Origin: Thermoproteota archaeon
GTDB lineage: Archaea; Korarchaeota; Korarchaeia; B14-G2
Assembly (NCBI GenBank): GCA_037917675.1
Contig: JAVCBW010000059.1
Span: forward strand, 1 to 12,846
Direction of reading: 5' to 3'
DNA: 12,846 nucleotides
Position numbers and translations under genes: made by a program. This document shows positions 306 through 10,834 of the stretch, piece by piece (the first letter of the stretch is position 1; each line of letters opens with the position of its first letter). The notes below the pieces were generated by a model. The model was not told the origin of the DNA. It worked only from the letters and a program-made list of their open reading frames with translations, and searched no databases.

Positions 306-385
306 GCTTACAGTAGTTTCATTGATCCTGGTTTGAATGTTAGAGGCGAATAGCTATGTTTTTATATGCTTTTGCCAGTGTTTGT

Positions 386-862
386 ATGGTGTCTTTATTG
401 GGTTATTCTCATGTTGCCTGGGGGGTTTTAGCAGGTGTTTCAGCAGGCCTCCTGTACTATGGGCTTTCTGGTGGTGCAGTTAGTGCAACAGCTATGGTGG
501 CAGCTGTTGCAACGATGGCGACAGCAACTTTAACCAAGCTGATTGAGAGGTCTTGGGAGGGTGGAAAGGCTAGGGCGGAGGAGATTAAGGCTAGGGCGGA
601 GGAGATTAAGGCTAAGGCAGAGGAGGTTAAGGCTAGGGCGGAAGAAGTTAAGGCTAGAGCGGAAGAAGTTAAGGCTAGAGCGGAGGAGATTAAGGCTAGA
701 GCGGAAGAAGTTAAGGCTAAGGCAGAGGAGGTTAAGGCTAGGGCTGCTGTATTTGAGGCTAGGAGCAGGTTCCTGATAGCTCTATTGGGTTATTTACCTG
801 AGGAAGATAGGAGGGAGATAGCTAAGTCTGCTGTCAGGGGGCTGCTGGAGACTTTGGAGTAG
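386..862 (+). CDS. Membrane-anchored coiled-coil protein with heptad repeats (hypothetical)
   Basis: Two hydrophobic Gly/Ala-rich N-terminal segments are followed by 8 x KA(R/K)AEE(I/V). The start is moved from 356 to the in-frame ATG 386 because a TTTATAT box lies at 361-367. Confidence 0.7.
   Translation: MVSLLGYSHVAWGVLAGVSAGLLYYGLSGGAVSATAMVAAVATMATATLTKLIERSWEGGKARAEEIKARAEEIKAKAEEVKARAEEVKARAEEVKARAEEIKARAEEVKAKAEEVKARAAVFEARSRFLIALLGYLPEEDRREIAKSAVRGLLETLE
566..745 (+). repeat. Coding tandem repeat, 8 full 21-bp units plus a partial ninth
   Basis: Units of AAGGCTA(G/A)(G/A)GC(G/A)GA(G/A)GA(G/A)(A/G)TT start at 566, 587, 608, 629, 650, 671, 692 and 713, with a partial unit at 734. Confidence 0.95.
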
Positions 863-2882: not shown

Positions 2883-3704
2883 CTATGCTTGATGCAGGCT
2901 GATTTCCCTTTGCTTGTTCATTTTTAATTTCTTATATCTAGATTTTGCTGCTGAGACTGCTTTTAGACATTTTACAGCTTCCGTTCTCAGGTCTAGCTTC
3001 ACGGTTTTGTGAAGAAATTTTATGAGGTATACTAGGCTTCTTGCACGTGCCTCTATCTCTTTCATTTCAGTCTTCATTTTCTCAAGGTCGTATTGTGGTT
3101 CGCAGCTTAGCTTGGAGGAAAGCCTCTTGGCTTTAAGTGTGACCTCCGAGCTTTCCTCGATCAGCCGCTGTCTAAGCCTTTTTACAACCTCTGCTTCAGT
3201 CCTATAGCTTTTTGCTACTAGCTTGGGGAAGCAGAGGGCTCTCCCTCCCATTAGCCTAACTAGTCTTGAGAGTTCAGTTGGGCTTACAACTTTCCCTTGA
3301 AACTCTAGGTACTTGGAATCTCTTACTTGTGGGAAGGCATATACGTTATTGCTGATCTTTATGCAGGGTGATTTTCTGAGAGCGCGGCTTACTGCCTTCC
3401 TAGCTTTTGCAGAGTTCTGGAGCCCCTTGTAGACTATGATGACTAGGCTACCAACGCTGGTTTCGCTAGGATCTTCAGCTATTTTCCACTGCTTTATGTC
3501 GCGGGACCTCTTGAAGAGGAAGTATTCTAAGCCCTCTACAGTGAGGAGTACCTGCTTTAAGCTAGACTTAGGTATGCTCCAAAAAGCTTTACTTATCATT
3601 GTACAGCCTAAGCTCTCCAGCTTCCTATGAAGGAGGGGGGGGATGTTGCTTGTAAAAGCTATGTAGTAGTGTTTTTTGAGGCTTGCTTCGCTGCTTGACT
3701 CCAT
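2883..3704 (-). CDS. Basic hypothetical protein with two tandem ferredoxin-like (Cas2/PaaX-central/ChrB-N-like) domains and a helical C-terminus
   Basis: Internal repeat: YYIAF..LHRKLESLGCTMISKAFWSIP versus VIIVY..ARKAVSRALRKSPCIKISNNVYAFP...LVRLMGGRAL. The pattern matches ChrB-N/PaaX 'hhhhY...R..hhR.L...G...h..svy.hP'. It starts 25 nt after the RtcB-like stop. Confidence 0.6.
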   Translation of the reverse strand: MESSSEASLKKHYYIAFTSNIPPLLHRKLESLGCTMISKAFWSIPKSSLKQVLLTVEGLEYFLFKRSRDIKQWKIAEDPSETSVGSLVIIVYKGLQNSAKARKAVSRALRKSPCIKISNNVYAFPQVRDSKYLEFQGKVVSPTELSRLVRLMGGRALCFPKLVAKSYRTEAEVVKRLRQRLIEESSEVTLKAKRLSSKLSCEPQYDLEKMKTEMKEIEARARSLVYLIKFLHKTVKLDLRTEAVKCLKAVSAAKSRYKKLKMNKQREISLHQA

Positions 3705-3729: not shown

Positions 3730-4938
3730 CTAGGCTTTTAAAACATATACTGGGATTAGGCGTGCTATTATCTTAGCCATCCCAAGCTCTATTGTCTTAA
3801 CAAGAACCTCTCTGCCTCTGTATGTAAATTCTAGGCCGTCTACATCAGAGACAATCTTCAACCCTATTCCATTGCTCATTTCTATGACAAAAAACCTGCT
3901 GGATCCAGTTTCTATCACGTCGATTACGCTAAGCATGTCTGGGAACGTATAGCCTCCGCCATGTGGTAGTATGTTTGCATTCTCGAGTCTATGGAGGACA
4001 CCTAGCCTCTCAGCTCTCTTAGCAAAGCCTAGGTTCTCGAGAGCATCAGCTGTGAAGTTCGGCTTTCCTGAAAGTAAGTATGCTGGTAGGTCTCCTCTCA
4101 GAGCTATTGGGTAGATCTCCCCGCTTTTCTGAGGGTTGATGTGGTGGCAGCCTAGGCAGGCTTCGTTGTAGTTTACTAAGCCTTGATGCGTCACATTCGC
4201 TAGCTCCTTGTAGCTCCCGAAGATTCCTCTTGCTATAAGGCTCCTCTTCCTTTTGGCAAAGCTTTCAGCATACCTGTAGTGTTCGTAGTATTCTTTCGCG
4301 TCATTTTCCGTTAGAACATATGAGGGGCCGAAGGGTGTCTCTACTCTATCAGCCATGTCTCTCAGAGACCTGCTGCTGTGCACGTAGAGACCTGGACCCT
4401 TCTCGTTCTCTTTCTTAAGCTCTGGAGCGGAGCTGTGGATTATAAAGGCATAGTTTGGAAGCTCCACATCAGCTGCTTTAACTACTCTATACACGTTTAT
4501 GAAGTGGTTACCCTTATCGAAATCCCATTGCAGCCTTATGTTGTCTAGTACTTTCTCATCCTCTTTTATGCTTGCTAAAGCATCAATAAGCTCAGATGGC
4601 TTAGGGAAGTCGTCTAAGCCTCCAACGAGGAGGCCGCAAGCATTTGGCATGACATCTAGTATAATGACCTTCTCCTCACCTTCTCCCCATGAAATCTTAC
4701 CTCCATATCCTACTCCAAAGTTCCACCTAACCCTGTTTCTCGTGATAGTTTCATCAGGCGTTGATATGAATGTAGCATTTGAGGGAATTCCATACTTCTC
4801 TTGAACATAGTGGAACTTTGCTAGCCCATAGCTCATGTTCCACCTACAAAGGCTGGAGGCAGCATCACCGACTCCTGTTGAGAATATGTGTAATTTAGCC
4901 TTATCGAGCGCCTGCTTCCGGCTCAATTTCCCTCCCAT
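3730..4938 (-). CDS. Divergent RtcB-superfamily (GTP/Mn-dependent 3'-phosphate RNA ligase-like) protein; start possibly TTG at 4926
   Basis: RtcB motifs occur in the right order: PD62, C101G, GN144H145F, IIH168S, Y..AESFAKRKR (for A..NR), TH251Q, YLLSG, PH326GGG, TYRG, and C-terminal ARLIPVYVLK401A (cf. ARLRP..V.KG). Confidence 0.8.
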   Translation of the reverse strand: MGGKLSRKQALDKAKLHIFSTGVGDAASSLCRWNMSYGLAKFHYVQEKYGIPSNATFISTPDETITRNRVRWNFGVGYGGKISWGEGEEKVIILDVMPNACGLLVGGLDDFPKPSELIDALASIKEDEKVLDNIRLQWDFDKGNHFINVYRVVKAADVELPNYAFIIHSSAPELKKENEKGPGLYVHSSRSLRDMADRVETPFGPSYVLTENDAKEYYEHYRYAESFAKRKRSLIARGIFGSYKELANVTHQGLVNYNEACLGCHHINPQKSGEIYPIALRGDLPAYLLSGKPNFTADALENLGFAKRAERLGVLHRLENANILPHGGGYTFPDMLSVIDVIETGSSRFFVIEMSNGIGLKIVSDVDGLEFTYRGREVLVKTIELGMAKIIARLIPVYVLKA

Positions 4939-4949
4939 GAAAGCTTGGC

Positions 4950-4960
4950 TAAAAAGAAAA
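4950..4960 (-). promoter_or_regulatory. T-tract acting as putative TATA box for the RtcB-like gene and/or oligo-U terminator of the upstream peptide
   Basis: Minus strand reads TTTTCTTTTTA. The TTTTTA part ends 23 nt before the in-frame TTG at 4926. Confidence 0.4.
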
Positions 4961-5018
4961 GTGAGGTCGGCTTCCTGATCACAGAAGTACTCCCCCTATC
5001 CCTTACTGGCGGTCAAAG

Positions 5019-5087
5019 CTACTTTTCCTTCTTTTTCCCTTTTCTCCTCTCCCTCTTCTTCTTTTCCTTTTTCTTCTCCTCAGCCAT
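5019..5087 (-). CDS. 22-aa Lys/Arg/Glu-rich small peptide MAEEKKKEKKKRERRKGKKKEK
   Basis: ATG at 5087 has GGAGAGGT (SD-like) about 6 nt upstream, a TTTTTATC box at 5144-5137, and TAG at 5021-5019. It is below the ORF-track size cutoff. Confidence 0.5.
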   Translation of the reverse strand: MAEEKKKEKKKRERRKGKKKEK

Positions 5088-5136
5088 GATATTACCTCTC
5101 CTCCTTCCTCAGGGAGGAGGATGGAGCTGAGACATT

Positions 5137-5144
5137 GATAAAAA
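5137..5144 (-). promoter_or_regulatory. Putative TATA box for the small peptide / RtcB-like unit
   Basis: TTTTTATC on the minus strand lies about 50 nt upstream of the SD-led ATG 5087. Confidence 0.4.
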
Positions 5145-5536
5145 GATTACTTAGCTTAGATTTTCGTCTACTCTGCTCTTATTGCGCACCAATATGGCTT
5201 TTTCAGGAGCTTTCTGTACTCTATTAAATTTTCCAGCCTATATGCTTGAATCGCCTTTCTTAGAGCGCTCCTATACTTCCTTCAAGAAGACATCTAGCCC
5301 TGCATGGTAGTCACAAACTTTCAAGACTCTAGTGATCCATATGCTCCCTGAGGATAGTCCAGATGAGCCTATGCCTCCTCTAGGTAGTCTAACGCTTTAG
5401 TTTGGAGCCAAGACATCCAAAGCTTTTTATTAAGCTTGGTGCTCCACTGGGCTCTGTGAAGAGGATTCCTCTGGTTCCTCTTGTTGACCTGCTTACTTGA
5501 AGCCGCATACAGCTAGAAATAGCAGATATACTTTCA

Positions 5537-5753
5537 CTACCCTGATTCTTCAAGCTCGCCACGCTCGACCTTTCTCATGTTTTCAAGGGCATACTCAAGT
5601 GTCTCTCTCACGGTTTCCACAGGTATCTTGAGTTCTCAGCTGCTCTTGGTAGCTCCATCAGCTGGTGGCTCCAGGATGCCATTTTACACTGACACACGCT
5701 CCCTTTGACAGCCTACCACATTTCTAGATGCTATCCCCTTTGATGTCTATCAC
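5537..5753 (-). pseudogene. DUF433-family antitoxin remnant
   Basis: Minus strand reads VIDIKG..*KCGRLSKGACVSV, then after a frameshift ILEPPADGATKSS*ELKIPVETVRETLEYALENMRK. This matches DUF433 'cgGkPvIkGtRipV..ILe.la.G.t.eei..el.l..e.vreAleYA' with two stops and one frameshift. Confidence 0.6.
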
Positions 5754-6242
5754 ATTCTGCTAGCTCATATGCTAGCAAGCATAATGTGTGTCTAGCTTCT
5801 GGGAAGTTTGAGGGAGGGCCATGGCTTACTCCATACCATAAACTGGATCACTTAGCTGAGCATAAAAAGAGGTGTGAGGTTCCAGTTCTTATAACAGGAG
5901 TAGGTAAGATATGTTGAAGGGATGCTGAGAGTAGAGGAGCCAGCAAGAGGCAAGTATGCTGGCGGTAAACTAGTGGATGCTTTGTCAAAGAAAGCAAGTA
6001 GGTGTGATATTCACGCATGAGCTAAAGGAAATGGTAGCAGGTTCTAAATGGTAAGAAGCAGAGAAATCACGTGCTGGATGGAATGCGCCTCATAGCTGGC
6101 GAGCTTCAAGCCAGCCTACTGGCATCAGGCTTCCTAATGAGCTGAGCTTAGGATGCTGTCTCAGTCATGTTTAGGTCTGCTATATGTCGGTGTGAGCTCA
6201 AAGCTTATTAGCTACCTAGCCTCTAGTCTGGTGGTGGAGCTA

Positions 6243-6914
6243 TTGGCGTTAACAGCAGAGCTTTATGAGCTTATAGTTAAGGTTGTAGAGGAGAAGATAA
6301 AGGATCTAAGAGTTCAGAGAGAGGAGTTTGAAAGCCTGACGAAAGCGATCAGTAAGCTAGCAGAGGCACAAGGGAAAACCGAGGAGAGAGTCGGGGAGCT
6401 TGCTGAGGCTCAGAAGAAGACTGAGGAGAGGGTCAGGGAGCTAGCTAAGAGGGTTGAGGAGCTTGCTGAGGCTCAGAAGAAGACTGAGGAGAGGGTCAGG
6501 GAGCTAGCTGAGGCTATTGATGCTCTTAGGGTTGAGGTTGGTAGGCTCTCTGAGGTGGTTGGCTTTGGGCTGGAGGATGTTGCTAGAGTTATGCTGCCAG
6601 GCTGGCTTTATAGGCATCTTGGTATTGAGGTGGAGCTTGAGAGGAGGTTTGTTGAAGTAGATGGTATGGGGGTAGAAGTTAACTTGTATGGTGAGGGGGT
6701 GAGAGAGGGTAGAAGAGTGATTGTGGTGGGGGAGTGTAAGTCTAGGATATATGGTGGGGATGTGGAGAGCTTTTATAGGAGGGTGTATAGGCCGATAGCT
6801 GAGAGGACTAAGGTGGAGGTTGTGGGGGTCTTGTTTGGCTACCTGATACATCCGACAGCACAGCAGGCAGCTAGGAAGCTGGGGCTATATACGGTGGCAT
6901 CGTACATGAGGTAG
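6243..6914 (+). CDS. Archaeal coiled-coil protein with C-terminal PD-(D/E)XK restriction-endonuclease-like domain (DUF3782-like family)
   Basis: Probable TTG start at 6243 (MALTAELYELIVKVVEEK) with GGTGG/GGAG SD and TTATTA at 6205-6210. It has LAEAQKKTEER repeats, VGFGLED, and EVNLYG...VVGECKSRI. Confidence 0.8.
   Translation: MALTAELYELIVKVVEEKIKDLRVQREEFESLTKAISKLAEAQGKTEERVGELAEAQKKTEERVRELAKRVEELAEAQKKTEERVRELAEAIDALRVEVGRLSEVVGFGLEDVARVMLPGWLYRHLGIEVELERRFVEVDGMGVEVNLYGEGVREGRRVIVVGECKSRIYGGDVESFYRRVYRPIAERTKVEVVGVLFGYLIHPTAQQAARKLGLYTVASYMR
6395..6509 (+). repeat. Perfect 52-bp direct repeat (6395-6446, 6458-6509), 63-bp period, in the coiled-coil region
   Basis: GGAGCTTGCTGAGGCTCAGAAGAAGACTGAGGAGAGGGTCAGGGAGCTAGCT occurs twice. 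A diverged third protein unit (KLAEAQGKTEERV) precedes it. Confidence 0.95.
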
Positions 6915-6916
6915 CC

Positions 6917-7299
6917 GGTGTGTCCTATAAGACTGTAGAGGAGTATGTTGAGGTGCTTAGGAGGCTCCTCCTACTGGAGTAGCATACCACAGGGGGGAGA
7001 GGGTATCCTGGAGGAAGGAGAAGAAGTTCTTCTTCCTAGACCCTTTCATAGCGAATACTCTTGTAGAGTGGACAGGTGGAGAGTACCTGGAGAGCTCGAT
7101 ATACGAGTGGGTAGTCCAAGCTCACCTGTATAGGAAGTAGGAGAGTATACTACTATAGGGATAGCTATGAGATAGACTGCATGCTGGAGGGCTCAGGATA
7201 GAGGTGAAGGCAGGGAAGCCTCATAGGAGATACCCAAAGAACACGATCATGCTTGGGAAAGAGGACATACCTCTCTTCCTATGTGCGCTAAGCGTGTAG
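6917..7299 (+). pseudogene. 3' remnant of an archaeal AAA+ ATPase with wHTH and DUF4143 (PD-(D/E)XK-like) C-terminal domain
   Basis: Frameshifted pieces read GVSYKTVEEYVEVLRRL / RVSWRKEKKFFFLDPFIA / IYEWVVQAHLYRK* / YYRDSYEIDC / GGLRIEVKAGKPHRRYPK...EDIPLFL, ending in TAG at 7297-7299. Confidence 0.8.
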
Positions 7300-7492: not shown

Positions 7493-7792
7493 ATGCTCAT
7501 ATTAGACTTGACCTCAGAGTGGGGTATTAGCCTGGAGCTGCTGGCTGAGAAGCTTAAAGCTAGGCTTAGAGGCAAGCTGGCTTATATAGCTGCCTCACCG
7601 AGCCCAGATACCTTGGCTTATGATAGCAATGTGCTTGTGGTCTTGAAGGATCTTTCACCAGGTGATGTGAGAGCTGTCATGGAGGCTAAGAGGGAGGTTG
7701 AGGCTGAGCTAGGTGAGAGAGTTCTGATAAGCCCCCTGGTAACTGAGCTAGGAGACAAGCTAGCTGAAAGGTTCCCAGGTAGATGGGTTTGA
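7493..7792 (+). CDS. Minimal nucleotidyltransferase (MNT)-fold protein, atypical; putative antitoxin
   Basis: About 100 aa, overlaps the HEPN gene. LAEKLKARLRGKL...YDSNVLVVL...ISPLV topology matches MNT, but the GS and DxD motifs are not canonical. TTTTAA box at 7457-7462. Confidence 0.65.
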   Translation: MLILDLTSEWGISLELLAEKLKARLRGKLAYIAASPSPDTLAYDSNVLVVLKDLSPGDVRAVMEAKREVEAELGERVLISPLVTELGDKLAERFPGRWV

Positions 7793-8127
7793 GCATGGAG
7801 AAGGCCAGGTCGCTGCTGAGGGAGGCTGAGCTAGACCTCAAGGCTAGATGCTACAATAAGGCTGCTAGCGCAGCCTACTTCGCAGCTAGGATGGCAGCTG
7901 ACTGCCTCCTAGAGGCTAGAAGGCTACATGTACCTAGGAGAGATGACAAGCTAGCGAACCTGATAGAGCACCTAGGCTTAAGAGAGGCAGCAAGCCTACT
8001 GAGAGAGCTCTACAACACTAGGAAGAGGGCAGACTACTCCTCTCTAAAGGTGGCTGGAGAGGAAGCTGCTGAGGCAGTAGAGAAGGCTAAGAGGGCAATA
8101 GAGCTGCTGAGAGAGCTCAGGCCATGA
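7783..8127 (+). CDS. HEPN-domain protein (UPF0332-like), partner of the MNT
   Basis: EKARSLLREAELDL...YNKAASAAYFAA...LYNTRKRADY...EEAAEAVEKAKRAI matches the family; the gene overlaps the MNT stop. Confidence 0.85.
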   Translation: MGLSMEKARSLLREAELDLKARCYNKAASAAYFAARMAADCLLEARRLHVPRRDDKLANLIEHLGLREAASLLRELYNTRKRADYSSLKVAGEEAAEAVEKAKRAIELLRELRP

Positions 8128-8225: not shown

Positions 8226-9323
8226 CTACCTGCTACAGTGTATTCTGATTGCTTTCTCAAGGTGGTGTGCTAGATCCCTTACCTGATCTAGGGTTATAGC
8301 TCCCATTAAGCCTACTCTCACAGCTTTCTCTCTCAGCTCTCCCATCCCAGATGCTATCAGATACCCTGCCTTCTTGACTTCCTCTATGACTTCCCTTGCT
8401 CTCGGAGCTTTAAGCTGTATTGCTGCTACTGTAGCTGACTGGTATCCTGGCGGTGGGATCGGCTTAGCCTCAGCTCTAGCTGCAGCCTCATAGACTTCTC
8501 TAGCCTTCTCCAGCTGAGACCTCCACCTGGCTTCTACACCCTCTCCTAGGAGGATCTCCAGAGCCTCTCTGAGAGCATATAGGAGTGTTACTGGCGGAGT
8601 GAAAGGCGTCTCACTTCTCCTAGAGTACTCTACTGAGAGCTTTAGGTCTAAGGATGGTGGCGGGCTTCTCCTCCTCTCCTGGAGCTTCTCTAGAGCCCTC
8701 TCCCCTAGGTAGACGAATGATATGCCTGGTGGAGCTGCAATGCACTTGTGTGAAGCTGAGGCTACAGCATCTAGCATCCAGCTATCTGCCTTCAGAGGCT
8801 CTCCTCCTAGCCCTGAGACTGAGTCTACTAGGACTAGGGCTCCAGCTTCCCTTGCCCTGGCAGCTATCTGCTTGAGGTTCCTAGCTGCATAGCCTGTGCT
8901 CGTCTCGTTGTGGACTGCTAGGATAGCAGATGGCGTGAGCTCCTCTAATGCCTCAGATACCTCGCTCACGTCGATCGGCTGGCCTTCAGGCCTCCTTAAG
9001 ACATGCACTTCAGCACCTCTTCTCCTAGCTGAGCTAGCTAGCCTGTCTCCGAACTCCCCATTTGAGAGAGCTAGCACCTTCTCGCCTGGCTCTAGTAGGC
9101 TCCAGACCATGGAGTCTACCGCTGTCGTGCCGCTCCCAGAGACTAGAGCTACAAGCTCATCTCCGACGTATACTTGCCTGAGCATGTCTACGACCTCCAT
9201 GTAGAGCTCTCTGAAGCTCTCTGACCTATGTGAGATCACTGGGCTCGCTTGAGCCTCAAGGACTCTTGGGTGGAGCTCAACTGGGCCAGGGGTCATCAGG
9301 ATCAGTCTAGCCACCTCTATCAC
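8226..9323 (-). CDS. Class V PLP-dependent aminotransferase (serine-pyruvate/alanine-glyoxylate family); likely phosphoserine aminotransferase role
   Basis: MTPGPV, ISHRS..F, GSGT.A, NGEFG.R, VHNETSTG, VDSVS, ASHKCIAAPPG (PLP Lys), TPFTPPV and VRVGLMG. It overlaps the serA-like stop. GTG 9314 is an alternative start. Confidence 0.9.
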   Translation of the reverse strand: MIEVARLILMTPGPVELHPRVLEAQASPVISHRSESFRELYMEVVDMLRQVYVGDELVALVSGSGTTAVDSMVWSLLEPGEKVLALSNGEFGDRLASSARRRGAEVHVLRRPEGQPIDVSEVSEALEELTPSAILAVHNETSTGYAARNLKQIAARAREAGALVLVDSVSGLGGEPLKADSWMLDAVASASHKCIAAPPGISFVYLGERALEKLQERRRSPPPSLDLKLSVEYSRRSETPFTPPVTLLYALREALEILLGEGVEARWRSQLEKAREVYEAAARAEAKPIPPPGYQSATVAAIQLKAPRAREVIEEVKKAGYLIASGMGELREKAVRVGLMGAITLDQVRDLAHHLEKAIRIHCSR

Positions 9324-10245
9324 CTAGCTCGTGTGCTATGGCCTCAGCTAGCTCAGCTGCAATCCTCCTCTTCGCCTCAGCTGTCTCAGCACCTATGTGT
9401 GGTGTAGCTATCACATGAGGGTGAGCTATGAGCTCCTTCTCCCAGCTCTCTCTAGGCGGCTCATGCTCGAGGACATCTATTGCTGCAGCAGCCAGCTTAC
9501 CTGAGTTTAAGGCTGATAGGAGAGCCCTCCCGTCTACTATAGCTCCTCTACTCGTGTTGATGAGGACTGCACCATCCCTCATAGACTCAAGCTCTCTCCA
9601 GCCTATCATCCTATAGGTTTCCTTGGTGAGTGGGACATGTAAGGTGACTGCATGGCTCTCTGACAGAAGGCTGCTGAAGCCTGAAGGCTCAGCTCCAGCC
9701 TCTCTAGCTTCAAATGCTATGTCCCTCCTATCATATGCTAGTACACGCATCCCTAGAGCTCTAGCTAGCTTGGCTACCCTCGAGCCTACCCTACCGAGCC
9801 CTATGACGCCCAGGGTTTTTCCAGCTAGCTCTCTGCCAGAATACATTCCTTTAGGCCACTTACCTAGCTTAACTAGCCTGTCGTATAGGGGTATCATCCT
9901 GAAGGCTGCTATCAGGAGGCCTATGGTGAGCTCTGCTACAGACTGAGATGCTCCAGCTGAGTAGATGACCTTGACTCCAAGCCTCCTAGCAGCCTCGAGA
10001 TCTATGTTATCTAAGCCTACTCCAGCTCTAGCCACGAGCTTAAGCCTGGTAGCTGCCTTAAGGAGCTCAAGGTCTACTCTAGTCCTGCTCCTGACGACAA
10101 GCACATCAAACCTGCTAGCCTCCTCAATGAGCTCCTCCCTGCTCACATTAGGCCTATACTCGACCTTGAAGCCTCTCTCAGAGAGCAGCTTCAGCAGGAG
10201 GCTGTCAACAGGGTCTGCTATGAGGACAGTGAGAGGCCCAAACAC
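9307..10245 (-). CDS. serA: D-3-phosphoglycerate dehydrogenase-like D-2-hydroxyacid dehydrogenase, short form without ACT domain
   Basis: VVRSRT, RAGVGLDNID, VAELTIGL, GLGRVG, LHVPLT, NTSRG, DVLEHEP and TPHIGAET. The start is moved to GTG 10245 because of a GGGGTG SD and a TTTAAAAA box at 10294-10287. Confidence 0.85.
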   Translation of the reverse strand: MFGPLTVLIADPVDSLLLKLLSERGFKVEYRPNVSREELIEEASRFDVLVVRSRTRVDLELLKAATRLKLVARAGVGLDNIDLEAARRLGVKVIYSAGASQSVAELTIGLLIAAFRMIPLYDRLVKLGKWPKGMYSGRELAGKTLGVIGLGRVGSRVAKLARALGMRVLAYDRRDIAFEAREAGAEPSGFSSLLSESHAVTLHVPLTKETYRMIGWRELESMRDGAVLINTSRGAIVDGRALLSALNSGKLAAAAIDVLEHEPPRESWEKELIAHPHVIATPHIGAETAEAKRRIAAELAEAIAHELGDRGG

Positions 10246-10834
10246 GACACCCCATACAAGACCCCCTACCCTCAAGACACCTACAGTTTTTAAAGCTACT
10301 AGAGGCAAGTGAGGAGCCTATAGCATAAGCTGATATCCTACAGTACCTTGATAAGACCATGGCTATAGCTGAAGCTGATGTGAAGCCTAGGACCATGCTG
10401 AAAGCCGAGGTCAGGAGCAGCTTTCAGGTAAGCAAGGCGATAGCCTGCTTGCAGTAGCTAGAGATGAGCTCTCAGCTAAGAAGCTCACCTAAGCTCCTGA
10501 TCCCCATGCGACATCTCTACAAGAAACATCTATGGAGCTAAATGCGGTATGAAAGAGCATAGGTGACGACATGTACAGGCCTCTGAAGATGTTGAGAAGC
10601 TAGATAAGCTAGCAGCTAAGAGAGCAAGAGCTACAAGCTGAAGCCCAGTAGTGACAGGAGCAGATAGTGGTAGAGCAGCCTCTTGTGTCCGCTAGCTCGG
10701 AGCCCTCACATCTATCACCATCGTAGTCTATTAAAGACTACATCAGCTATACTCCTAAGATACGAAGCATATGGCTAATGGAGCAGTCTTCTACAATCCA
10801 ACACTGATAAGGGGGTCACCTGATGGATGGAGGC

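What the first reader, a model, noticed from the sequence alone, without database searches (positions are those of the whole stretch)
3730..4938. Highly divergent RtcB-superfamily enzyme with a rewired active site
Seen: the 402-aa ORF has every RtcB landmark in order (PD62, C101, N144-H145, H168, H251, H326 in PHGGG, terminal K401). Established: in P. horikoshii RtcB, C98/H203/H234/H329/D95 bind Mn, H404 is guanylylated and K480 contacts GTP. Seen differences: the metal-ligand Asp of DIxCG is replaced (PNACG), HN becomes HQ, HRKGA becomes CLGCHH, PGSMG becomes ALRGD, HGAGR becomes HGGGY, and the segment between the Cys and GNH is short. Inference: a distinct RtcB paralog that may still form a His-NMP intermediate but may use a different nucleotide or substrate (RNA or DNA ends, capping, or a non-nucleic-acid acceptor) rather than being the tRNA-splicing ligase.
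Basis: partly seen in the sequence, partly recalled or inferred. Interest (0 to 1): 0.85.

Follow-up and report, generated by a model that had tools for sequence, protein, structure and literature searches.

The report
Second family of RtcB-fold enzymes
This archaeal gene encodes a well-conserved but unstudied cousin of the RNA-joining enzyme RtcB that keeps RtcB's metal-binding and nucleotide-carrying residues, sits beside the normal RtcB in the same genome, and probably modifies or repairs broken nucleic-acid ends in a way not yet tested.

Summary
The 402-aa ORF is real but lies on the minus strand (3730-4938).

**Family.** It belongs to an unnamed family of about 400-aa proteins.
- 971 clusters were found at E<=1e-3, from archaea and anaerobic bacteria.
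- None has a Pfam or NCBIfam model.

**Conservation.**
- H145, H168, H251 and H326 are invariant in 93 of 93 diverse members.
- C101 is kept in 88, N144 in 90 and D62 in 86 of 93.

**Relation to RtcB.**
- An AlphaFold2 model (pLDDT 93.6) matches only RtcB structures (Z 19.7-23.1; next fold 5.4).
- Profile-profile comparison with 13 canonical RtcBs gives E 2e-7.

**Missing relative to RtcB (by alignment).**
- The Mn2 aspartate.
- The arginine of HGAGR.
- R238.
- The roughly 60-residue insert that carries the 5'-OH-strand contacts.

**Genome context.**
- The genome has a separate canonical rtcB and archease, so this is not the tRNA-splicing ligase.
- An HD phosphohydrolase gene is adjacent in 34 of 81 loci.
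- Archease, canonical RtcB, EndoQ and a metallophosphoesterase recur in 5-6 of 81 loci each.
- The window's own neighbour is instead a lineage-specific 273-aa protein.

**Reading.** The most likely function is a metal- and NTP-dependent His-NMP enzyme acting on phosphate-terminated nucleic-acid ends. That chemistry is inferred, not shown. I rate it a new variant of a known kind, interest 0.7.

The parts
3730..4938 (-). 402-aa gene for a member of an unnamed RtcB-fold family (P0001).
   Evidence: ORF and translation. 971 homologues. AF2 model with pLDDT 93.6. RtcB-only structural matches at Z about 22. hhalign against canonical RtcB at E 2.2e-7.
4753..4758 (-). Codons for P61-D62 (STPDET), proposed counterpart of the RtcB PDGH motif (D65).
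   Evidence: Codons checked. D62 is kept in 86 of 93 members. The best ungapped register falls on VIVLPDGHEG, which is weak evidence.
4636..4644 (-). Codons for N99-A100-C101 (PNACG). C101 is the counterpart of the metal-bridging Cys98.
   Evidence: Codons checked. C101 is kept in 88 of 93 members. PNACGLL scores best on DINCGVR.
4504..4509 (-). Codons for N144-H145 (GNHF), counterparts of N202/H203 (Mn2 ligand and 5'-OH/phosphate contact).
   Evidence: hhalign aligns GNHF to GNHF at positions 201-204. H145 is kept in 93 of 93 and N144 in 90 of 93 members.
4435..4437 (-). Codon for H168, counterpart of the Mn1 ligand H234.
   Evidence: hhalign. Kept in 93 of 93 members.
4183..4188 (-). Codons for H251-Q252, probable counterparts of H329/N330.
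   Evidence: H251 is kept in 93 of 93 members. The alignment register is only marginally supported.
3949..3963 (-). Codons for H326-G-G-G-Y330. H326 is the counterpart of the nucleotidylated His404, and Y330 replaces R408.
   Evidence: hhalign. Segment score of 14.3. H326 is kept in 93 of 93 members.
3736..3738 (-). Codon for K401, counterpart of K480 (guanine O6 contact).
   Evidence: hhalign aligns K401 to the own-genome K479. Invariant in A1. K in 50 and R in 15 of 93 broader members.
2883..3704 (-). 273-aa downstream gene, 25 nt after the stop and probably co-transcribed. It is a lineage-specific protein with two ferredoxin-like domains and a helical tail.
   Evidence: ORF. Relatives sit next to the RtcB-like gene only in L004 and L005, with 75-aa N-domain versions in L013 and L014. 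Model pLDDT is 72.7 and there is no significant PDB match.

Best explanation
SHOWN. The minus-strand ORF 3730-4938 encodes a member of a widespread, strongly conserved, unnamed protein family. The family is a distant homologue of RNA ligase RtcB and has the same fold.
- It keeps the counterparts of RtcB's metal-bridging Cys (C101), of the metal histidines (H145, H168 and very probably H251), and of the histidine that carries GMP (H326, in PHGGG).
- It also keeps N144 and the C-terminal Lys (K401).
- By alignment it lacks the Mn2 aspartate (a Pro stands there), the Arg of HGAGR (Tyr), R238 (Pro), and about 60 residues between the Cys and GNH. In P. horikoshii RtcB that stretch holds the 5'-OH-strand contacts R190 and Q194.
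- The same genome has its own canonical RtcB and archease, so this gene is an addition, not the tRNA-splicing ligase.

INFERRED.
- The enzyme binds a transition metal through Cys/His.
- It reacts with an NTP to form H326-NMP and passes the NMP to a phosphate-terminated nucleic-acid end. This would be activation or capping of a 3'-phosphate (or similar) end, possibly followed by sealing.
- It does this in an end-repair pathway that runs beside canonical RtcB.
- In many lineages it works together with an adjacent HD phosphohydrolase, which may prepare the end or remove the cap.
- The acceptor-side rewiring suggests a different second substrate or no sealing step. The variable residue at the E206 position (N148 here) leaves the nucleotide open.
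For: Homology and fold.
- Foldseek's listed hits at E<=1e-3 are all RtcB chains.
- VIA-align gives Z 19.7-23.1, rmsd 3.3-3.4 A and 305-319 aligned residues spanning model 6-402. The next fold scores Z 5.4.
- hhalign of 93 family members against 13 canonical RtcBs gives Prob 93.5, E 2.2e-7.

Catalytic set.
- H145, H168, H251 and H326 are kept in 93 of 93 members; C101 in 88, N144 in 90, R232 in 90.
- Roles of the counterparts come from passages in two papers. PMC8051266 gives Mn1 = C98/H234/H329, Mn2 = D95/C98/H203, His404-GMP, and N202, R238, R190, Q194 on the 5'-OH strand. PMC9745838 gives K480 to O6, E206 to N1/N2, and N330 to the gamma-phosphate.

Not the housekeeping ligase.
- PF01139 gives no hit.
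- The own genome has a canonical RtcB and an archease.
- 8 of 10 other carriers have PF01139.

Nucleic-acid context in 81 loci.
- HD gene on the same strand next to it: 34 of 81.
- Archease: 6 of 81.
- Canonical RtcB: 5 of 81, in three separate clades of the tree.
- EndoQ homologue: 5 of 81 (PfuEndoQ, E 1e-63).
- Metallophosphoesterase: 6 of 81.
- The HD partner is closest to YpgQ/YedJ-type HD hydrolases (5dqv, E 7e-25). YpgQ is an NTP/dNTP pyrophosphohydrolase (PMC8177086, passages).

Conservation. Identity across archaea and bacteria is about 50%, similar to canonical RtcB (47-59%). That suggests a conserved substrate.
Against: - No activity data exist.
- 3D clustering of the five residues could not be checked, because no coordinates are available.
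- The H251 = H329 register is weak.
- The Mn2 Asp is absent, and the nearby D95 is kept in only 41 of 93 members. A two-metal NTP site like RtcB's is therefore not assured.
- R408, R238 and the R190/Q194 insert are missing, so strand joining may be impossible.
- The family is less basic than RtcB. Median pI is 6.66 over 119 members and 7.18 for this protein, whereas 11 of 13 canonical RtcBs are above 8.0. This fits a polynucleotide substrate less well.
- Neighbourhoods are heterogeneous. In the window's own clade 0 of 11 loci have the HD neighbour.
- The window's neighbour has no known function.
- Within the window's phylum the gene is patchy: 2 of 43 genomes carry it and the same-genus genome lacks it. 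It is therefore dispensable.
Confidence: 0.5

Rival explanations
1. It forms a His-NMP intermediate like RtcB, but the acceptor is not a nucleic acid. The acceptor would be a protein side chain or a phosphorylated small molecule, and the adjacent HD hydrolase would act as the eraser or recycler.
For: - The 5'-OH-strand contacts (R238 and the R190/Q194 insert) and R408 are lost.
- pI is near neutral.
- The HD partner resembles nucleotide pyrophosphohydrolases, with weaker resemblance to GlnD-type HD domains.
- One fused form carries an APH/thiamine-kinase-like small-molecule kinase domain (P0138).
- Pyruvate kinase lies upstream in 5 DPANN loci.
Against: - Archease, canonical RtcB, EndoQ and a metallophosphoesterase recur next to the gene.
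- N144, the counterpart of the residue that contacts the 5'-OH nucleophile, is kept in 90 of 93 members.
- The kinase fusion is a single cluster.
Confidence: 0.17
2. It is a metal-dependent phosphoesterase only, for example a 2',3'-cyclic phosphodiesterase or end-trimming hydrolase built on the RtcB scaffold, with no nucleotidyl transfer.
For: - Canonical RtcB has an intrinsic cyclic phosphodiesterase step (abstract of PMC8051266).
- Loss of the Mn2 Asp and R408 could disable NTP chemistry while leaving a Cys/His metal site.
Against: - The nucleophile His in PHG-G is kept in 93 of 93 members.
- The C-terminal Lys and the PD motif, which are counterparts of nucleotide-binding residues, are also largely kept.
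- A hydrolase alone would not need these.
Confidence: 0.15
3. It is simply this organism's tRNA-splicing or RNA-repair ligase RtcB, only fast-evolving.
For: Same fold and the same order of motifs.
Against: - PF01139 gives no hit at E<=1, and the NCBIfam RtcB models score 12-13 bits against cut-offs of 272-407.
- A 480-aa canonical RtcB, which matches P. horikoshii RtcB at E 7e-191, is in the same genome together with archease.
- The family is itself slowly evolving.
Confidence: 0.03
4. It is a catalytically dead RtcB-fold protein with a structural or regulatory role.
For: Several canonical catalytic residues are missing (D95, R408, R238).
Against: Four His are invariant in 93 of 93 members, and Cys, Asn and Arg are near-invariant across archaea and bacteria. 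That is the signature of an active site.
Confidence: 0.03

Closest known systems
Canonical RtcB 3'-phosphate/5'-OH RNA ligase (Pfam PF01139; P. horikoshii, E. coli, human RTCB).
   Same: - Same fold: Z 19.7-23.1 over about 310 residues.
- Same order of motifs.
- Counterparts of C98, H203, H234, (H329), H404, N202 and K480 are kept.
   Different: - About 13-16% identity; not found by PF01139.
- About 80 residues shorter; the Cys-to-GNH stretch is 44 residues against 105.
- P98 stands in place of the Mn2 ligand D95, Y330 in place of R408, and P172 in place of R238.
- The E206 position is N here and variable in the family.
- Less basic.
- Coexists with canonical RtcB.
End-capping activities of RtcB enzymes: E. 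coli RtcB DNA3'pp5'G capping, and the 5'-phosphate capping of Myxococcus xanthus RtcB3 (as cited in review PMC10630183, passages seen).
   Same: These are the precedent that an RtcB active site can stop at NMP transfer to a phosphate end without sealing. That is what the loss of acceptor-strand contacts here suggests.
   Different: Those enzymes are ordinary PF01139 members. No capping has been tested for this family.
RtcB2-PrfH ribosome-repair type (NCBIfam TIGR03073, release_rtcB).
   Same: It is the only curated model giving any signal with the single sequence: E 0.04 over residues 184-245.
   Different: The score is 12.8 bits against a cut-off of 271.8. No release-factor gene is seen beside the gene in the window.
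YpgQ/YedJ-type HD phosphohydrolases. This is the family's frequent neighbour, not the protein itself.
   Same: The neighbour matches 5dqv (YpgQ) at E 7e-25 and 3gw7 (YedJ) at E 1e-21.
   Different: The neighbour's invariant residues are H35, H70-D71, H83, H115 and D135. They fit the six-residue H..HD..H..H..D pattern that PMC8177086 (passage) ties to dinuclear sites, whereas YpgQ is mononuclear. In the window's genome the two nearest HD homologues lie on other contigs.

Membership tests
RtcB family (Pfam PF01139, canonical 3'-P RNA ligase) | Scores above the PF01139 gathering cut-off (27 bits). | tested here: not met
   There are 0 Pfam families at E<=1. The genome's canonical copy scores 574 bits.
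RtcB family (Pfam PF01139, canonical 3'-P RNA ligase) | RtcB fold. | tested here: met
   Model pLDDT is 93.6. Foldseek gives E about 3e-8 with only RtcB chains. VIA-align gives Z 19.7-23.1 against 5.4 for the next fold.
RtcB family (Pfam PF01139, canonical 3'-P RNA ligase) | Metal-bridging Cys98 in (D)xNCG. | tested here: met
   C101 in PNACG. It is kept in 88 of 93 members, and the best segment register falls on DINCG.
RtcB family (Pfam PF01139, canonical 3'-P RNA ligase) | Mn2 ligand Asp95, three residues before the Cys. | tested here: not met
   P98 occupies that position. The upstream D95 is kept in only 41 of 93 members.
RtcB family (Pfam PF01139, canonical 3'-P RNA ligase) | His203 (in GNH) and His234 as metal ligands. 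| tested here: met
   hhalign aligns H145 and H168 to them. Both are kept in 93 of 93 members.
RtcB family (Pfam PF01139, canonical 3'-P RNA ligase) | His329-Asn330 (Mn1 ligand and gamma-phosphate contact). | tested here: inconclusive
   H251-Q252 is invariant or near-invariant. The register is supported only marginally (3.8 against 3.6), and hhalign's low-confidence path differs.
RtcB family (Pfam PF01139, canonical 3'-P RNA ligase) | Nucleotidylated His404 in HGAGR, with Arg408. | tested here: inconclusive
   The His is met: H326 is kept in 93 of 93 members and is aligned. The Arg is not met: Y330 stands there (Y in 67 of 93 members).
RtcB family (Pfam PF01139, canonical 3'-P RNA ligase) | Guanine contacts Lys480 and Glu206. 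| tested here: inconclusive
   K401 aligns to K480. The E206 position is N148 here and varies in the family: N 25, D 15, E 13, G 13 of 93.
RtcB family (Pfam PF01139, canonical 3'-P RNA ligase) | 5'-OH-strand contacts Arg238, Arg190 and Gln194. | tested here: not met
   R238 aligns to P172. The stretch holding R190 and Q194 is absent: 44 residues against 105. These are alignment-based statements.
RtcB family (Pfam PF01139, canonical 3'-P RNA ligase) | Mn- and GTP-dependent joining of 3'-P or 2',3'-cyclic-P ends to 5'-OH ends. | not testable with these tools
   This needs enzymology.
RtcB superfamily (homology at fold and profile level) | Significant structural and profile-profile similarity to RtcB over most of the chain. 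| tested here: met
   Prob 93.5, E 2.2e-7, with columns 139-401 aligned to 197-479.
RtcB2-PrfH type (TIGR03073) | Scores above the curated cut-off (271.8 bits). | tested here: not met
   The score is 12.8 bits.

The most novel reading that the evidence does not exclude
This is a second, ancient branch of the RtcB superfamily with its own chemistry. It would be a Cys/His-metal, His-NMP enzyme that has given up strand sealing. Together with a dinuclear HD phosphohydrolase it would form a write-and-erase system that caps and uncaps phosphate-terminated RNA or DNA ends (or nucleotidylates another phosphorylated acceptor) in anaerobic archaea and bacteria. Subtypes would be rewired to other partners, such as the 273-aa protein in this window.
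Probability: 0.3. Interest if true: 0.85.

Novelty: new variant of a known kind. Interest (0 to 1): 0.7.

Why it matters
RtcB has so far stood as one sequence family with a unique fold and a unique 3'-phosphate-activating chemistry.

This gene belongs to a second family with the same fold:
- It is about as conserved as RtcB itself.
- It is present in at least 317 loci among about 185,000 species-level genomes, in Asgard, Bathyarchaeia, DPANN, methanogens and many anaerobic bacteria.
- It has no curated model or name.

That would widen the known repertoire of nucleic-acid end-modifying enzymes. It also gives enzymologists a defined target with clear control mutants (H326A, C101A).

Its active site keeps the donor side and loses the acceptor side of RtcB. 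It is therefore a natural experiment on which RtcB residues serve which step.

Its links to archease, RtcB, EndoQ and HD hydrolases point to unexplored repair pathways in uncultured anaerobes.

Tried and rejected
**Single-sequence and shallow-profile searches** gave nothing usable.
- phmmer against PDB found only a Fur-family chance hit at E 0.97.
- The 40-sequence profile against PDB put RtcB at E 0.31, behind [NiFeSe] hydrogenase noise at E 0.09.
- hhalign of A1 against 5 canonical RtcBs gave Prob 4.8, E 0.008. Significance came only after widening both alignments.

**Complex prediction** of an RtcB-like protein with its overlapping HD neighbour (L033 pair, each as an alignment) returned no answer, with scores 0.00 and 0.00. 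This is not evidence either way.

**The look-up of sequencing runs** listed no RNA holder, only two DNA runs that may be the source.

**Other blanks.**
- PADLOC gave no hit for the protein, its 273-aa neighbour or the HD partner.
- Rfam gave nothing in the window.
- The bacterial-type promoter and terminator scan found no more sites than in shuffles, and archaeal promoters are not covered.
- The search for longer fused forms (705-2010 aa) found none at E<=1e-10.
- The 565-aa form P0163 has an Arg-rich, low-complexity tail and looks like a frameshift artefact.

**The 273-aa neighbour.**
- The word-index search found only the protein itself.
- Pfam gave ChrB_N at 17.3 bits, below the cut-off of 23.
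- The Foldseek PDB search of its model gave 0 hits at E<=1e-3, only weak ferredoxin-like, ACT, Cas2 and PaaX resemblances.
- Its function is left open.

**Synteny with the same-genus genome G004** was not informative. Only 8223-10299 matches at 85% identity, on a 4.8-kb contig. An insertion could therefore not be shown.

**The ORF-free stretch 4939-6152.** tblastn of 861 neighbour proteins against it gave only one chance-level hit (E 0.008, 24 bits) and no pseudogene trace.

**Tools and papers not available.**
- The 2016 NAR survey of RNA repair systems by Burroughs and Aravind, which I recall and which might mention such a family, is not held. Supplements of papers were not consulted.

**The claim that the family is not described in print** rests on four full-text searches. 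It also rests on all 120 listed homologues being unnamed or 'hypothetical protein' with no Pfam domain.

**The tree** is the quick tree. The careful search did not finish.
Full report
**1. The observation**

The ORF listing shows one long ORF at 3730-4938, but on the minus strand (402 aa, ATG start). The plus-strand reading of the same coordinates is full of stops. The minus-strand translation is P0001.

- P61-D62 in STPDET
- C101 in PNACG
- N144-H145 in GNHF
- H168 in IIHSS
- H251-Q252 in VTHQ
- H326 in LPHGGGY
- K401 in the final VLKA

The small plus-strand ORF 4499-4804 that overlaps the gene is antisense to a strongly conserved gene. I treat it as spurious.

**2. It is a member of a large, unnamed family**

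Pfam gives no hit at E<=1. NCBIfam gives only two sub-threshold RtcB hits, at 12.8 and 12.5 bits against cut-offs of 271.8 and 407, over residues 183-245.

The search for homologous proteins found 971 proteins at E<=1e-3 among 6452 candidates. For the 120 listed:
- identity is 48-64% (apart from the window's own copy) over 91-100% of the query
- lengths are 366-442 aa
- none has a precomputed Pfam domain
- every name given by a source is 'hypothetical' or 'uncharacterized'

Sources named include:
- Archaea: Bathyarchaeia, Odin-, Loki- and Helarchaeota, Woese- and Nanoarchaeota, Methanocellales.
- Bacteria: Desulfobacterota, Spirochaetota, Atribacterota, Planctomycetota, Clostridia, Anaerolineae, Armatimonadota and others.

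The exhaustive HMM search of 1.84 billion 50%-identity representatives found 350 clusters at E<=1e-3, 264 at <=1e-10 and 158 at <=1e-30. Canonical RtcBs were not pulled in. In the species-level genome collection, 317 of 333 pattern matches encode a relative.

Conservation:
- In a wider alignment of 93 sequences (P0001 plus 92 full-length representatives of 340-470 aa, out of the 150 listed), H145, H168, H251, H326 and G263 are kept in 93 of 93.
- C101 is kept in 88, G102 in 89, N144 in 90, F146 in 91, R232 in 90, P325 in 92, G329 in 91 and D62 in 86.

**3. It has the RtcB fold and is a distant RtcB homologue**

AlphaFold2 on A1 gave pLDDT 93.6 and pTM 0.92.

- Foldseek against the PDB returned 13 matches at E<=1e-3. 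All the listed ones are RtcB chains (P. horikoshii, human, zebrafish; E 3e-8 to 1e-6, TM 0.41-0.51). The next hit is spermine synthase at E 0.033.
- VIA-align on Foldseek's candidates gave Z 19.7-23.1, rmsd 3.3-3.4 A and 305-319 aligned residues. The alignment covers model residues 6-402 and chain residues 14-505, for 10 RtcB entries. The next entry has Z 5.4.

By sequence the link is invisible to single profiles. It becomes significant when both sides are widened. The 93-sequence family alignment against 13 canonical RtcBs gives hhalign Prob 93.5, E 2.2e-7 over 139-401 against 197-479. The 13 are the own genome's copy, four from neighbourhoods and eight fetched from other carrier genomes.

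**4. Residue correspondences**

The genome's own canonical RtcB aligns to P. horikoshii RtcB at E 7e-191 with numbering within one residue. hhalign gives:
- G143-N144-H145-F146 = GNHF 201-204
- H168 = own H235 (Pho H234)
- R232 = own R297
- H326-GGG-Y330 = own H403-GAG-R407 (Pho H404...R408)
- K401 = own K479 (Pho K480)
- P172 opposite own R239 (Pho R238)

Ungapped profile-segment scoring puts:
- PNACGLL best on DINCGVR (8.5 against 4.6)
- FISTPDETIT best on VIVLPDGHEG (3.2 against -1.3)
- NILPHGGGYTF best on ASTAHGAGRLM (14.3 against -0.1)
- LANVTHQGL best on VYDVCHNIG, but only just (3.8 against 3.6)

hhalign's own path in that last stretch is low-confidence and places Y257-N258 on H-N instead. 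I take H251 as the H329 counterpart because it is invariant in 93 of 93 members and Y257 is not. This step is inference.

Roles of the canonical residues come from passages I read.
- PMC8051266: Mn1 is held by C98/H234/H329. Mn2 is held by D95/C98/H203. His404 carries GMP. N202 contacts the 5'-OH nucleophile. R238, R190 and Q194 contact the 5'-OH strand.
- PMC9745838: K480 contacts guanine O6. E206 contacts N1/N2. N202 contacts the alpha-beta bridging oxygen. N330 contacts the gamma-phosphate.

The donor (metal/NTP/His) side is therefore largely kept. Four features are not:
- The Mn2 Asp. P98 stands there, and the upstream D95 is kept in only 41 of 93 members.
- R408, replaced by Y330.
- R238, replaced by P172.
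- The whole stretch bearing R190 and Q194. C101 to H145 is 44 residues, against 105 in the canonical enzyme.

The E206 position is N148 in this protein. It is D in at least 90% of A1 and variable in the wider set, so the base specificity is open.

**5. It is not the housekeeping ligase**

- The window's genome (1.78 Mb, 62 contigs, 92.7% complete) has one canonical RtcB (C1:67297-68601, 574 bits).
- It has one archease (C1:16905-17315, 158 bits).
- It has one copy of the new family.
- Of 10 other carrier genomes sampled, 5 bacterial and 5 archaeal, 8 have a PF01139 gene. The two misses may be incomplete bins.

Within the window's phylum only 2 of 43 genomes carry the family, and the same-genus genome (91% complete) does not.

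In a quick maximum-likelihood tree of 81 members:
- The window's protein sits among Bathyarchaeia sequences (SH-aLRT 88-90, not at the 95 mark).
- The 35 bacterial rows form one clade (99).
- The 18 DPANN-type rows form another (100).

The gene and its neighbour have GC of 0.46 and 0.445, against 0.487 for the window. Together this suggests, but does not prove, acquisition from a Bathyarchaeia-like source.

Some MAGs hold two copies from different clades: L004/L014, L005/L006 and L060/L078.

**6. Neighbourhoods**

I called ORFs on the 80 fetched loci plus the window and clustered the 861 products.

The one frequent neighbour is a roughly 217-aa HD-domain protein (Pfam HD, E 7e-13).
- It lies on the same strand in 34 of 81 loci, upstream or downstream, often overlapping by 4 nt. 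In L049 and L061 one gene lies between.
- By clade: 13 of 18 DPANN-type rows, 17 of 35 bacterial rows, 4 of the remaining 28, and 0 of 11 in the window's own clade.
- Its profile matches YpgQ (5dqv, E 7e-25), Lin1889, YedJ (3gw7) and other HD hydrolases.
- YpgQ is a Mn-dependent NTP/dNTP pyrophosphohydrolase (PMC8177086, passages).
- The neighbour's invariant H35, H70-D71, H83, H115 and D135 fit the six-residue pattern that the review ties to dinuclear sites.

Less frequent but telling neighbours:
- Archease in 6 of 81 loci and canonical RtcB in 5 of 81. They occur in three separate clades and three arrangements: archease-HD-(YdjM)-RtcB-like-RtcB in L044, L049 and L061; RtcB-like-HD with archease and RtcB on the opposite strand in L046; and L013/L014.
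- A 450-553-aa metallophosphoesterase in 6 of 81 loci.
- An EndoQ homologue in 5 of 81 loci (PfuEndoQ, E 1e-63). There it is followed by nusA, infB or proS.
- Pyruvate kinase upstream of the HD gene in 5 DPANN loci.

Many loci are truncated, so these counts are lower bounds. Related loci are not independent.

**7. The window's own context**

Twenty-five nucleotides downstream on the same strand lies a 273-aa ORF (2883-3704).
- Its only relatives among the loci are next to RtcB-like genes in Bathyarchaeia: L004 and L005 at 23% identity, E 8e-19 and 2e-12. A 75-aa version of its N-terminal domain lies directly upstream in L013 and L014.
- Its model (pLDDT 72.7) shows two beta-alpha-beta-beta-alpha-beta domains and a three-helix tail, with no significant PDB match.
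- The genome's closest relatives of the HD partner are on other contigs: C4:482-862, E 1e-24, and C19:5571-6071, E 2e-21.

Upstream of the gene, 4939-6152 has no ORF of 64 codons or more and no Rfam hit.

**8. Mechanism**

What is shown:
- an RtcB-fold protein
- an invariant Cys + 4 His constellation that maps, for four of the five with good support, onto RtcB's metal ligands and nucleotidyl-histidine
- coexistence with canonical RtcB
- recurrent linkage to HD hydrolases and, in several lineages, to archease, RtcB, EndoQ or a metallophosphoesterase

What I infer (confidence about 0.5):
- A metal- and NTP-dependent enzyme forms H326-NMP and transfers it to a phosphate-terminated nucleic-acid end.
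- The loss of the acceptor-strand contacts and of R408 argues that the second half-reaction differs from RtcB's sealing. It could be capping only, or a different nucleophile.
- The precedent is capping by E. coli RtcB and M. xanthus RtcB3 (review PMC10630183, passages).

Evidence that pulls the other way:
- near-neutral pI: median 6.66 over 119 members, against 11 of 13 canonical RtcBs above 8.0
- the missing Mn2 Asp
- heterogeneous neighbourhoods
- one APH/thiamine-kinase-like fusion (P0138)

These keep alive a non-nucleic-acid acceptor (0.17) or a hydrolase-only role (0.15).

**9. Novelty**

No curated model, no solved structure and no name exists for the family. Four full-text searches found no description of it. 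One relevant survey could not be read.

It is a new variant of a known kind: a second sequence family within the RtcB superfamily with a partly rewired active site. I set interest at 0.7. It is not a new fold or a proven new chemistry. It is a widespread, testable target that would surprise and interest people who work on RNA and DNA end repair.

Noticed in passing
window 4939-6152: About 1.2 kb directly upstream of the RtcB-like gene has no ORF of 64 codons or more in any frame, no Rfam match, and only one chance-level tblastn hit (E 0.008) to any neighbour protein of the 80 related loci. That is unusual for a compact 1.78-Mb archaeal genome. It also holds a pyrimidine-rich run around 5020-5090.
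   Followed up: partly
window 7493-7792 and 7783-8127 (+): Two small overlapping genes. The second is a HEPN-domain protein (Pfam E 5e-8), so this is probably a HEPN toxin-antitoxin-like pair. DNA similar to 6966-7291 and 7790-7962 recurs on several contigs of the same-genus genome G004, so these are repeated, possibly mobile, modules.
   Followed up: partly
window 356-862 (+) and 6153-6914 (+): Two proteins with tandem charged heptad-like repeats (KARAEE(I/V) repeated many times, and AEAQKKTEERVRELA repeated). They give only coiled-coil noise in Pfam and PADLOC. Function unknown.
   Followed up: no
P0138 (743 aa, from the representative library): A single cluster in which an APH/thiamine-kinase-like phosphotransferase domain (Pfam APH, E 3e-20) is fused in front of the RtcB-like domain. 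It could hint at a phosphorylated small-molecule or protein substrate.
   Followed up: partly
L004/L014, L005/L006, L060/L078: Three MAGs each carry two copies of the family on different contigs. In the L004/L014 pair the copies fall in different clades with different neighbours: the 249-aa relative of the window's neighbour in one, archease and RtcB in the other. This suggests sub-functionalised subtypes.
   Followed up: partly
L061:6999-9953: The canonical RtcB next to the RtcB-like gene is 984 aa, about twice the normal length. It possibly contains an intein. I did not examine it.
   Followed up: no
L028, L030, L056, L058, L080: In Clostridia- and Aerophobetes-labelled MAGs the HD / RtcB-like pair is followed by an EndoQ homologue and, in the longer loci, by nusA, infB or proS. 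It is preceded by electron-transfer flavoprotein genes. A DNA-repair nuclease therefore sits in a housekeeping operon next to the pair.
   Followed up: partly
window 8226-10308 (-): The class-V aminotransferase and D-2-hydroxyacid dehydrogenase genes are the only part of the window with a clear DNA match (85%) in the same-genus genome G004.
   Followed up: no
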